A DNA stretch of 64,000 bases from Candidatus Moraniibacteriota bacterium (GTDB lineage: Bacteria; Patescibacteriota; Minisyncoccia; Moranbacterales; JBBINP01): positions 1,430 through 65,429 of the forward strand of contig JBBINP010000001.1 of assembly GCA_037443825.1 (NCBI GenBank). Reading direction: 5' to 3'. Below the pieces are notes generated by a model. The model made no database searches. It was given only the letters and a program-made list of their open reading frames with translations, and had not been told where the DNA came from. Both the position numbers and the translations under genes were made by a program. This document shows positions 14,966-15,784 of this stretch, one piece after another (position 1 is the first letter of the stretch; each line of letters begins with the position of its first letter).

Positions 14966-15784
14966 ATGGATTTTAAGGAAAAAGTTCTCAAAGCAGTTTC
15001 TCGAATTCCTGAAGGAAAATTTTTTACCTACAAGAAAATCGCCGCGTTGGCGGGTAATTCCCGGGCATATCGGGCGGCGGCCGGCGCGTTGGCGCGCAAC
15101 CGCAGTCCTGAAATTTTTTGCCATCGGGTTGTCAGAAACGACAACCTGGTCGGCGGTTATTGCGGTTCGGAAAAATTGGCATGGAAAAAAGCCGCCCGAC
15201 TTCTGAAAGAAGGAGCGGTTGGCGTGATTCCGACGGATACTATTTATGGAATTTGCGCGTCGGCGCTAAATCAAAGAAGCGTTGTCCGGATGTATGGGCT
15301 GAAAAAAAGAAATCCCGTTAAGCCGGTGATTATTTTGATTGCCTCGTTCATGGATTTGGAAAAATTCGGCATTATTTTTAACGACTGGCGGAAAGAAATT
15401 TTAAATCAGGTTTGGCCCGGTCCGGTAAGTGTTATTTTGCCATGTGTCGGCAAAAAATTCGCTTATCTTCACAGAGGAACCGAAACTCTGGCTTTTCGTT
15501 TGCCGAAAAAAAAGGAGCTTCTGAAAATATTGTCCGTTTCCGGTCCGCTTGCCGCGCCGAGCGCCAACTGGGAAGGCAGTCCGCCTGCTGAAAATATCGG
15601 GCAGGCAAAAAAATATTTTGGCCGCGAGGTTTTTTATTTCGGAAGCAAGAAATTAAAAGGCGCGGCTTCTACTCTGATGGACTTGTCCTCAACGGAGAAA
15701 AAAATAAAAATTTTGAGGGCCGGCGCTGGATTTGTTAAAATTAAAAAGTTGATAAAAAAGCGCGCTCCCCATTTGTTTTTTTGA
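14966..15784 (+). CDS. fusion protein: MGMT-family DNA-binding/alkyltransferase domain (FCHRV) + TsaC/YrdC threonylcarbamoyl-AMP synthase domain
   Basis: N-terminal ~85 aa: IPEGKFFTYKKIAALAGNSRAYRAAAGALARNRSPEIFCHRVVRNDNLVGGY (MGMT C-domain with the Cys-His-Arg motif). Remainder: GVIPTDTIYGICAS...KRNPVKPVIILIAS...WPGPVSVILP...LAFRLP...GPLAAPSANWEG...STLMDL..ILRAGAG (YrdC/TsaC). The start was moved to ATG 14966; the ORF track starts at 14918. Confidence 0.7.
   Translation: MDFKEKVLKAVSRIPEGKFFTYKKIAALAGNSRAYRAAAGALARNRSPEIFCHRVVRNDNLVGGYCGSEKLAWKKAARLLKEGAVGVIPTDTIYGICASALNQRSVVRMYGLKKRNPVKPVIILIASFMDLEKFGIIFNDWRKEILNQVWPGPVSVILPCVGKKFAYLHRGTETLAFRLPKKKELLKILSVSGPLAAPSANWEGSPPAENIGQAKKYFGREVFYFGSKKLKGAASTLMDLSSTEKKIKILRAGAGFVKIKKLIKKRAPHLFF

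What the first reader, a model, noticed from the sequence alone, without database searches (positions are those of the whole stretch)
14966..15784. Fusion of an MGMT-type domain (Cys-His-Arg motif intact) with the t6A enzyme TsaC/YrdC
The N-terminal ~85 aa are the DNA-binding/alkyl-acceptor domain of O6-alkylguanine-DNA alkyltransferase with the active cysteine retained (FCHRV; consensus is PCHRV). The rest is a complete YrdC/TsaC threonylcarbamoyl-AMP synthase. I am not aware of this domain combination being described. The MGMT-like domain might tether TsaC to nucleic acid, or the protein might couple alkyl-damage sensing to tRNA modification.
Basis: partly seen in the sequence, partly recalled or inferred. 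Interest (0 to 1): 0.5.

Follow-up and report, generated by a model that had tools for sequence, protein, structure and literature searches.

The report
Mini-MGMT fused to tRNA enzyme TsaC
A small bacterium of the candidate phyla radiation makes a single protein in which a DNA alkylation-repair "suicide" domain (MGMT type, catalytic cysteine kept) and the essential tRNA-modification enzyme TsaC share one connecting helix. The fusion is real and conserved in well over a hundred relatives, I found no paper describing it, and its function is untested.

Summary
Window 14966..15784 (+) is one uninterrupted 272-aa ORF: PF01035 covers residues 2-83 (E 4.5e-20) and PF01300 covers 79-253 (E 2.3e-34). 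It scores above NCBI's TsaC equivalog cut-off.

The fusion is not an assembly artefact:
- The same ORF lies on three contigs.
- All 120 best database relatives carry both domains.
- 26 of the 80 best-matching GTDB species-representative loci, all Patescibacteria, have it.

The MGMT part has no N-terminal AGT domain. It keeps Cys52, His53, Arg54, Tyr22, Arg36, Asn45, Tyr65 and Glu82 (human C145, H146, R147, Y114, R128, N137, Y158, E172), each in 111-120 of 120 relatives.

The last MGMT helix is also the first TsaC helix. Its AGT-type Lys75 and Glu82 are invariant or nearly so in fusions but variable in stand-alone TsaCs. AlphaFold gives a rigid two-domain body (pTM 0.90).

The MGMT part derives from 82-97-aa stand-alone "mini-MGMTs". 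A second lineage with a structured linker, and possibly a third, appear to have fused independently.

Best reading: a bifunctional alkyltransferase plus TC-AMP synthase, with TsaC standing in for the missing AGT N-domain. Regulatory coupling or RNA targeting is possible but untested. This is a new variant of known kinds, of moderate interest.

The parts
14872..14900 (+). Promoter-like site TTGACG-17-TATAAT (11 of 12 consensus positions) upstream of the gene. It suggests the gene has its own transcription start.
   Evidence: consensus scan only; 9 sites found against 3.4 expected in the region.
14966..15784 (+). MGMT-TsaC fusion gene, 272 aa plus stop. Gene callers use the in-frame ATG at 14942 (280 aa).
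14969..15214 (+). Mini-AGT/MGMT domain (residues 2-83): helix-turn-helix, Arg finger R36, Y22, Asn hinge N45, active site, Y65. There is no AGT N-terminal domain.
   Evidence: Pfam. Residue mapping to human AGT. Foldseek to human AGT, 80-85 columns, rmsd 1.7-2.2 Å. Conservation.
15116..15130 (+). Active-site motif F51-C52-H53-R54-V55 (family consensus P-C-H-R-V/I).
   Evidence: sequence. C 120/120, H 117/120, R 120/120, P 111/120, F 5/120.
15170..15214 (+). Junction helix (residues 69-83, model helix 69-81). It serves both as the last AGT helix, carrying K75 and E82 (human K165 and E172), and as the first TsaC helix leading into GVIPTDT.
   Evidence: Overlapping Pfam envelopes. Model. Fusion versus stand-alone residue counts. 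It is the most conserved segment (median 75% identity).
15200..15754 (+). TsaC/YrdC domain (residues 79-263), type 1 with no SUA5 domain. It contains PTDT 89-92, KxR 113-115 (nt 15302-15310), R178 and SxN 199-201 (nt 15560-15568).
   Evidence: Alignment to T. maritima TsaC2 and P. abyssi Sua5. Foldseek E 5e-16, rmsd about 2.3 Å. Invariant columns.

Best explanation
The gene encodes one rigid, bifunctional protein.

C-terminal part: residues ~84-263 form the organism's housekeeping type 1 TsaC. It makes threonylcarbamoyl-AMP from ATP, threonine and bicarbonate, the first step of tRNA t6A37 synthesis.

N-terminal part: the ~83 N-terminal residues form a catalytically competent 'mini' O6-alkylguanine alkyltransferase. 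It is descended from free-standing 82-97-aa mini-MGMT proteins. It binds DNA through its helix-turn-helix, flips the damaged base with the Arg finger, and irreversibly takes the alkyl group onto Cys52.

Junction: the two modules are spliced with no linker, so the last AGT helix (carrying the Lys165 and Glu172 equivalents) is also the first TsaC helix. The TsaC domain probably acts as the structural buttress that the N-terminal domain supplies in ordinary AGTs, as the partner domain may do in AGT-EndoV.

Shown: domain identities, intact motifs, conservation, the shared helix, family distribution, and origin from mini-MGMTs.

Inferred: both activities, the buttress role, and that the two activities are otherwise independent.
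For: - Both domains score above curated cut-offs.
- Both domains match solved structures at about 2 Å.
- AGT catalytic and DNA-binding residues are conserved in 111-120 of 120 fusion relatives. Cys is 120/120 (mapping to human AGT).
- In the junction helix, Lys (P-14) is 120/120 and Glu/Asp (P-7) is 120/120 in fusions. In 199 stand-alone TsaCs the same positions are Lys in 47 and Glu in 18.
- TsaC motifs are invariant and align to the TsaC2/Sua5 active sites.
- The MGMT domain is nearly as conserved as TsaC (60% against 66% median identity). The junction is the most conserved part at 75%.
- AlphaFold gives pLDDT 93 and pTM 0.90 for the window protein, and pLDDT 95 and pTM 0.90 for the separate linker lineage.
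- Stand-alone mini-MGMTs with the same one-residue-shorter Asn-hinge loop exist.
- Review PMC10779285 states that the AGT N-domain is not strictly required and that C-domain-only AGT fusions (AGTendoV, C. elegans AGT-2) exist, with AGTendoV repairing O6-alkylguanine.
- There is no conserved gene neighbourhood, as expected for a housekeeping gene.
- The closest stand-alone TsaCs are from the same phylum.
Against: - No activity has been measured for any member.
- The window copy has Phe instead of the near-universal Pro before the Cys.
- The whole lineage, including mini-MGMTs, has a one-residue-shorter Asn-hinge-to-Cys loop than characterised AGTs. Substrate range or activity may therefore differ.
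Whether the TsaC domain sits where the AGT N-domain would, and whether the DNA-binding face is free, was not checked.
- I could not check whole genomes for a second tsaC or ogt.
- Apparent recurrent fusion hints at more than a neutral fusion, which plain independence of the two activities does not explain.
Confidence: 0.55

Rival explanations
1. Damage-sensing switch. Irreversible alkylation of Cys52 destabilises the MGMT fold, as it does in known AGTs. Through the shared helix it inactivates or destabilises the attached TsaC. Alkylation stress would then stoichiometrically throttle t6A synthesis and hence translation, analogous in logic to Ada's methylation switch.
For: - The zero-length, shared and most-conserved junction helix carries the Glu172 equivalent.
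- Review PMC10779285 reports that alkylation destabilises AGT and disrupts its inter-domain contacts.
- The same two partners appear to have fused independently two or three times, although they are not neighbours as separate genes in any locus examined.
Against: - The evidence is purely structural inference. No expression or activity data exist.
- Tying an essential enzyme to a suicide protein could simply be tolerated because alkylation events are rare.
- CPR TsaC is also fused to unrelated partners, so fusion by itself is weak evidence of coupling.
Confidence: 0.15
2. RNA-directed function. The MGMT domain works on tRNA or RNA rather than DNA. It might remove O6-alkylG or O4-alkylU from tRNA, or help position TsaC on tRNA or the TsaD machinery.
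For: - Other N-terminal partners of CPR TsaC include RNA enzymes: TruB, and a 2H/LigT-like phosphoesterase.
- From my own recall, not checked here: E. coli YrdC has been reported to bind RNA/tRNA.
Against: - The conserved residues are exactly the DNA minor-groove, base-flipping set of DNA AGTs.
- TsaC does not need tRNA for catalysis, since TC-AMP is handed to TsaD (PMC4615747).
- Other fusion partners (Wzy_C, ceramidase-like) are unrelated to RNA.
Confidence: 0.12
3. Non-catalytic N-domain. The MGMT module is an ATL-like lesion or nucleic-acid binder, or only a structural appendage, without alkyl transfer.
For: - The AGT N-terminal domain is missing.
- The Asn-hinge loop is shortened.
- The catalytic His is replaced by Phe in the linker lineage (5 of 5) and by Tyr in 3 of 120 main-family members.
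- The window copy has Pro replaced by Phe.
Against: - Cys is 120/120 and the Glu-His-Cys network and Tyr/Arg are conserved. ATLs replace the Cys (PMC10779285).
- Sequence is much closer to true AGTs (E about 1e-8) than to Atl1 (E 0.016).
Confidence: 0.08
4. Artefact. Two separate genes were joined by an assembly error, a frameshift or a lost stop codon.
For: None found. In two of the 26 related loci (L016, L023) the fusion ORF is interrupted, which shows that such breaks can occur.
Against: - The identical ORF lies on three contigs from different assemblies.
- 120 of 120 homologues are fused.
- The junction is the best-conserved part of the protein.
- The two Pfam envelopes overlap, so there is no room for a stop and a restart.
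Confidence: 0.01

Closest known systems
AGTendoV of Ferroplasma acidarmanus, and C. elegans AGT-2 (C-domain-only AGT fusions)
   Same: An AGT C-terminal (HTH plus PCHR) domain without the usual N-terminal domain is fused to another functional domain. Review PMC10779285 describes both as C-terminal-part-only AGT fusions and states that AGTendoV repairs O6-alkylguanine.
   Different: The partner here is a tRNA-modification enzyme, not a DNA-repair nuclease or a histone-like tail. The junction is a shared helix. The lineage is Patescibacteria.
Canonical Ogt / Ada-C / human MGMT
   Same: Same fold (rmsd about 2 Å) and the same catalytic and DNA-binding residues: C145, H146, R147, Y114, R128, N137, Y158, K165, E172 equivalents.
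   Different: No N-terminal domain. The Asn-hinge-to-Cys loop is one residue shorter. The window copy has FCHRV instead of PCHRV.
Alkyltransferase-like (ATL) proteins (E. coli YbaZ/eATL, S. pombe Atl1)
   Same: Single-domain size, with no AGT N-terminal domain.
   Different: ATLs lack the acceptor Cys, whereas this family keeps it in 120 of 120 members. Sequence similarity to Atl1 is marginal (E 0.016, against about 1e-8 for AGTs).
Type 1 TsaC (E. coli YrdC/TsaC) and known TsaC fusions (TsaC-HemK MG259, Sua5, HypF, TobZ, TsaN)
   Same: A YrdC-fold TC-AMP synthase domain with KxR and SxN motifs, scoring above the TIGR00057 cut-off. TsaC is already known to occur in fusions (PMC4615747 and PMC9654439; PDB 8ide).
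   Different: None of the described fusions involves an MGMT domain. Here the partner is N-terminal and shares TsaC's first helix.
Stand-alone mini-MGMT proteins (82-97 aa, PF01035 only; P0390-P0405)
   Same: 46-55% median identity and up to 66-71% identity to the fusion N-domains. Same shortened Asn-hinge loop and the same IPCHRV...GGY...K..L..EG layout.
   Different: They are free-standing, in variable gene contexts, and never next to tsaC in the five contexts examined. As far as I could find they are uncharacterised themselves.

Membership tests
O6-alkylguanine-DNA alkyltransferase (AGT/MGMT/Ogt; PF01035, TIGR00589) | C-terminal HTH DNA-binding/active-site domain fold | tested here: met
   PF01035 at 71.7 bits (cut-off 27). 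TIGR00589 at 55.3 bits (cut-off 46.4). Foldseek to human AGT, rmsd 1.7-2.2 Å over 80-85 columns.
O6-alkylguanine-DNA alkyltransferase (AGT/MGMT/Ogt; PF01035, TIGR00589) | Active-site (I/V)PCHRV with acceptor cysteine | tested here: met
   C52, H53, R54 and V55 are present. Pro is replaced by Phe in the window copy. Family counts: C 120/120, H 117/120, R 120/120, P 111/120.
O6-alkylguanine-DNA alkyltransferase (AGT/MGMT/Ogt; PF01035, TIGR00589) | Base-flipping and DNA-binding residues: Tyr114, Arg128 finger, Asn137 hinge, Tyr158 | tested here: met
   Y22 120/120, R36 120/120, N45 111/120, Y65 113/120. The Asn-to-Cys loop is one residue shorter than in human AGT or Ada.
O6-alkylguanine-DNA alkyltransferase (AGT/MGMT/Ogt; PF01035, TIGR00589) | Glu172-His146-water-Cys145 network, and Lys165 in the last helix | tested here: met
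   E82 (E/D 120/120) and K75 (120/120) in fusions. The same positions in 199 stand-alone TsaCs are E in 18 and K in 47.
O6-alkylguanine-DNA alkyltransferase (AGT/MGMT/Ogt; PF01035, TIGR00589) | N-terminal AGT domain (structural; present in canonical Ogt/Ada-C/MGMT) | tested here: not met
   The protein starts at the C-domain and no N-domain family hit was found. This feature is also absent in the C-domain-only fusions AGTendoV and AGT-2 (PMC10779285), so it does not define the activity.
O6-alkylguanine-DNA alkyltransferase (AGT/MGMT/Ogt; PF01035, TIGR00589) | Stoichiometric alkyl transfer from O6-alkylguanine to the Cys | not testable with these tools
   Needs biochemistry.
Alkyltransferase-like (ATL) proteins | Acceptor Cys replaced (Trp/Ala), giving a lesion binder without transfer | tested here: not met
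   Cys is retained in 120/120. Atl1 scores only E 0.016.
TsaC/YrdC type 1 threonylcarbamoyl-AMP synthase (TIGR00057, PF01300) | Score above the curated equivalog cut-off over the full YrdC domain | tested here: met
   TIGR00057 at 133.1 bits (cut-off 123.2). PF01300 covers profile positions 2-178 of 178. Other fusion lineages also pass (P0126 134.6, P0127 123.7, P0004 147).
TsaC/YrdC type 1 threonylcarbamoyl-AMP synthase (TIGR00057, PF01300) | Catalytic motifs: PTDT-YG, KxR, R of AxR, SxN | tested here: met
   T90, D91, T92, Y94, R178, S199 and N201 are invariant and R115 is at least 90% conserved. They align with the same motifs of T. maritima TsaC2 and P. abyssi Sua5.
TsaC/YrdC type 1 threonylcarbamoyl-AMP synthase (TIGR00057, PF01300) | TC-AMP formation; being the sole TsaC of the genome | not testable with these tools
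   There is no second copy in the 64-kb window.
Sua5 / TsaC2 | C-terminal SUA5 domain after the YrdC domain | tested here: not met
   The protein ends about 10-20 residues after the YrdC domain and has no further Pfam hit.

The most novel reading that the evidence does not exclude
The fusion is an alkylation-damage sensor wired into translation. Each irreversible alkyl transfer onto Cys52 distorts the shared helix that carries the Glu172 equivalent. This switches off or destabilises the attached, essential TsaC, so t6A37 synthesis, and with it decoding of ANN codons and start-codon selection, is reduced in proportion to alkylation load. Apparent independent recurrence of the same fusion in two or three Patescibacteria lineages would then reflect selection for this coupling.
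Probability: 0.12. Interest if true: 0.8.

Novelty: new variant of a known kind. Interest (0 to 1): 0.45.

Why it matters
If both halves are active, this would be the first case I know of where a suicide DNA-repair protein is physically welded to an essential tRNA-modification enzyme. In known AGTs, each repair event inactivates and destabilises the alkyltransferase, so here a repair event might also cost the cell a molecule of TsaC.

That is a simple, testable link between genotoxic stress and translational capacity in organisms with minimal regulatory repertoires.

It also highlights an uncharacterised class of 82-97-aa mini-MGMTs. These would show how little of the AGT fold is needed, and how another domain can replace the AGT N-domain.

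At minimum, it corrects inconsistent database annotation. Members are currently named either 'TsaC' or 'MGMT', never both.

Tried and rejected
- Conserved neighbourhood: looked for shared neighbours among the 26 fusion loci and against the window's neighbours. None found.
- Adjacent precursor genes: looked for a separate MGMT gene next to stand-alone tsaC in 54 related loci (±10 kb). None found. Five mini-MGMT contexts showed no tsaC or t6A genes nearby. An 'adjacent genes merged' origin is therefore not documented.
- Second copies in the window: none of either domain. Pfam scans of 30 other window ORFs found no tsaD, tsaB or tsaE.
- AFDB50 fold search: library unavailable.
- Longer relatives (309-349 aa): these are not extra domains but low-complexity insertions in a TsaC loop.
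- Bootstrap with Biopython's distance calculator: timed out. Redone with numpy distances.
- Kanugula 2005 (PMC553313): not held. The AGTendoV statement is cited from the review instead.
- ATL membership: rejected because the Cys is retained.
- Sua5/TsaC2 membership: rejected because there is no SUA5 domain.
- Assembly artefact: rejected.
- Literature: seven searches for the domain combination or for t6A enzymes in this phylum found no description of an MGMT-TsaC fusion.

Full report
**1. What is in the sequence**

Window 14966..15784 (+) is one uninterrupted ORF of 272 codons (sequence). In-frame starts also exist upstream: ATG at 14942, used by public gene callers to give 280 aa, and TTG at 14918. 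The alignment of relatives begins at the 14966 Met in 75 of 120 cases.

A near-consensus promoter-like site, TTGACG-17-TATAAT, lies at 14872-14900 (a consensus match only).

Pfam places PF01035 (MGMT DNA-binding/active-site domain) on residues 2-83 (E 4.5e-20) and PF01300 (Sua5/YciO/YrdC) on residues 79-253 (E 2.3e-34). NCBIfam gives TIGR00589 'ogt' at 55.3 bits (cut-off 46.4) and the TsaC equivalog TIGR00057 at 133.1 bits (cut-off 123.2). There is no SUA5 domain, so the enzyme part is a type 1 TsaC.

**2. Not an artefact**

- The identical ORF occurs on three contigs, including an NCBI MAG (GCA_964511735.1) and a Logan assembly of run SRR11582139.
- All 120 best hits among 5.8 billion proteins (47-67% identity) carry both Pfam domains.
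- Among the 80 best-matching loci from GTDB species-representative genomes, 26 encode the fusion and 54 encode stand-alone TsaC. In two of the 26 (L016, L023) the ORF is interrupted. Nearly all records are labelled Patescibacteria/CPR groups (Parcubacteria, Wolfebacteria, Moranbacteria, Minisyncoccia and similar); a few binning-pipeline MAGs carry other labels.
- At 50% clustering of 1.84 billion representatives, only about seven clusters are fusions, against thousands of TsaC clusters. This is a narrow but well-populated family.
- Source annotations call members either 'threonylcarbamoyl-AMP synthase' or 'methylated-DNA--protein-cysteine methyltransferase', never both.

**3. Is the MGMT domain a real alkyltransferase domain?**

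Alignment to human AGT maps the following residues:

| Window residue | Human AGT | Conserved in 120 fusion relatives |
|---|---|---|
| Y22 | Y114 | 120 |
| R36 | R128 (Arg finger) | 120 |
| N45 | N137 (hinge) | 111 |
| C52 | C145 | 120 |
| H53 | H146 | 117 |
| R54 | R147 | 120 |
| Y65 | Y158 | 113 |

The residue before the Cys is Pro in 111 of 120 relatives. The window's Phe is a minority state (5 of 120).

True AGTs score E about 1e-8 against the N-domain, while the Cys-less ATL protein Atl1 scores 0.016. The domain is therefore AGT-like, not ATL-like.

There are two departures from characterised AGTs:
- The N-terminal AGT domain is absent.
- The Asn-hinge-to-Cys loop is one residue shorter.

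Review PMC10779285 states that the N-domain is not strictly required, and that natural fusions consisting only of the AGT C-terminal part exist (AGTendoV of Ferroplasma, C. elegans AGT-2). It reports that AGTendoV repairs O6-alkylguanine. It does not mention Sua5, YrdC or TsaC.

**4. The junction is a shared helix**

The two Pfam envelopes overlap (residues 79-83). The AlphaFold model (pLDDT 93.1, pTM 0.90) has a single helix at 69-81 that runs straight into the first TsaC strand at 86-89.

I counted residues at fixed offsets before the TsaC PTDT motif:

| Position | Human AGT equivalent | 120 fusions | 199 stand-alone CPR-type TsaCs |
|---|---|---|---|
| P-14 | K165 | Lys 120 | Lys 47 |
| P-7 | E172 | Glu 116, Asp 4 | Glu 18 (Asn, Ser, Lys, Gly, Gln common) |

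The TsaC-type positions (Leu at P-9, Gly at P-6) are kept in both sets. The helix therefore carries AGT active-site residues and TsaC's N-terminal helix at once.

It is also the most conserved segment of the protein. Median pairwise identity is 75% for the junction, 60% for the MGMT part and 66% for TsaC. This is the strongest evidence that the alkyltransferase active site, not just a binding surface, is under selection.

**5. The TsaC domain**

It aligns end to end with T. maritima TsaC2 and P. abyssi Sua5, including LK(K/E)R and APSAN. Foldseek gives E 5e-16 and rmsd about 2.3 Å. T90, D91, T92, Y94, R178, S199 and N201 are invariant in the family.

The nearest stand-alone TsaCs are from the same phylum at 48-59% identity. 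In a rough NJ tree, three stand-alone TsaCs (L026, L027, L029) nest inside the main fusion clade, which may be secondary losses of the MGMT domain.

There is no second copy of either domain in the window, and no tsaD, tsaB or tsaE among 30 other window ORFs scanned.

**6. Origin and recurrence**

The N-domain of a divergent fusion (P0126 and L028, 'linker' lineage, five clusters) finds stand-alone proteins of 82-97 aa as its closest relatives. These are PF01035 only, at 54-66% identity, with IPCHRVVRSDG...GGYNRG...K..L..EG and the same shortened Asn-hinge loop.

These mini-MGMTs sit in variable contexts, not next to tsaC. No MGMT gene lies within 10 kb of the 54 stand-alone tsaC loci.

The linker lineage differs from the main family:
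- It keeps both helices, separated by about 20 residues that AlphaFold models as an ordered β-hairpin (pLDDT 95.4, pTM 0.90).
- It has CFRV instead of CHRV in all five members.

In NJ bootstraps of the TsaC domain, the linker clade is monophyletic in 94 of 100 replicates. It never groups with the main family to the near-exclusion of stand-alone TsaCs (0 of 100). The same holds for a third form, P0127.

N-domain identities tell the same story. Each fusion class is at least as close to mini-MGMTs (median 46-55%) as to the other classes (43-50%).

Caveats:
- The trees are rough NJ trees on 172 columns.
- Main-family monophyly itself is weakly supported (17 of 100).
- The mini-MGMT sample was chosen by similarity to the linker lineage.

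With these caveats, two or three independent fusions of mini-MGMT to the N-terminus of TsaC are the simplest reading.

Against over-interpreting this, CPR TsaC also occurs fused to TruB, to a 2H/LigT-like phosphoesterase, to Wzy_C and to a ceramidase-like membrane domain.

**7. Mechanism**

Best supported (about 0.55): a bifunctional protein, combining a mini-AGT suicide alkyltransferase with TC-AMP synthase. TsaC serves as the structural partner that replaces the AGT N-domain, and the two activities are otherwise independent.

Rivals:
- A damage-sensing switch, in which alkylation of Cys52 propagates through the shared helix and disables TsaC (about 0.15).
- An RNA- or tRNA-directed role for the MGMT domain (about 0.12).
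- A non-catalytic, ATL-like or purely structural N-domain (about 0.08).
- An artefact (about 0.01).

The shown steps are domain identity, motif conservation, the shared helix, the distribution and the ancestry. All activities, and any coupling between them, are inferred.

I could not inspect model coordinates. The position of TsaC relative to the DNA-binding face is therefore untested.

**8. Comparison and novelty**

The t6A reviews list TsaC-HemK, Sua5, HypF and TobZ (PMC4615747 and PMC9654439). The TsaD-TsaC-SUA5-TcdA enzyme TsaN is known from PDB 8ide and PMC10484737. The AGT review lists Ada, AGTendoV, ATL-EndoV and AGT-2. None mentions MGMT-TsaC. Seven full-text searches found nothing.

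The architecture is therefore present in databases but, as far as I could search, undescribed. I rate it a new variant of known kinds: a new partner for both a known class of C-domain-only AGT fusions and a known fusion-prone enzyme. The seamless shared helix and the apparent recurrence are unusual.

Interest is moderate (0.45). It would rise substantially if alkylation were shown to control TsaC.

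Noticed in passing
window 11066-14364: Directly after tRNA-Pro (11066-11141), between rpoC and the fusion gene, lies a three-gene island: an EcoRI-like N6 methylase (PF13651), a Bro-N protein, and a GmrSD_N+HNH nuclease. It looks like an inserted restriction/defence island. A GmrSD plus EcoRI-methylase pair also lies about 1 kb from the stand-alone tsaC of locus L053.
   Followed up: partly
P0390-P0405 (loci L083-L091): A family of free-standing 82-97-aa 'mini-MGMT' proteins. They have PF01035 only, keep PCHRV, and have an Asn-hinge loop one residue shorter than characterised AGTs. 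Gene contexts vary (next to recJ, glycosyltransferases, HtrA-like protease, acylphosphatase, alaS). I found no solved structure for this class, and the AGT review I read does not describe it.
   Followed up: partly
P0130, P0328, L038, L047; P0193; P0163; P0187: Patescibacterial TsaC is also found with other N-terminal partners: TruB pseudouridine synthase, a 2H/LigT-like phosphoesterase, a Wzy_C membrane domain, and a ceramidase-like membrane domain. Whether the last two are real fusions or gene-calling run-ons was not checked.
   Followed up: partly
P0126, P0271-P0274, L028:9974-10876: A second MGMT-TsaC lineage has a ~20-residue ordered β-hairpin linker. Its active site reads PCFRV (catalytic His replaced by Phe) in all five members. 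Three main-family members have CYRV.
   Followed up: partly
P0122: One fusion cluster has the TsaC PTDT..YG motif changed to DTDT..PG, so it may be a degenerate TsaC domain.
   Followed up: no
P0021, P0039, P0043, P0079, P0080, P0118, P0072, P0101: Insertions of about 35-80 aa, mostly low-complexity (Asn/Pro/Gly-rich), sit in one TsaC loop after '...ISVIL' in some family members. This explains the 309-349-aa relatives.
   Followed up: partly
window 15000-15300: Local GC is 51-60% over the MGMT HTH/active-site and junction coding region, against 41.6% for the window. The window copy is unusually Ala/Arg/Gly-rich here compared with the Lys-rich family consensus. The cause was not determined.
   Followed up: no
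window 14642-14815 (-) and 15932-16477 (+): Two flanking ORFs (57 aa and 181 aa) are called in public assemblies, with no precomputed Pfam family on record for either; my own Pfam scan of the 181-aa ORF also found none. They were not seen at the other fusion loci.
   Followed up: partly
window 27009-34113, 37769-41401, 42206-43732, 58773-59182: Other features: LexA (27009-27521); an N4/N6 DNA methylase (27709-28533); a type I R-M system with a fused HsdM-HsdS (28744-31743, -) and HsdR (31747-34113, -); a T4SS-like set of pilin, PrgI and VirB4/TraG ATPase; ComM; and a tmRNA with tag ANLYSKVKAAFARAMTPAFAPALA.
   Followed up: no
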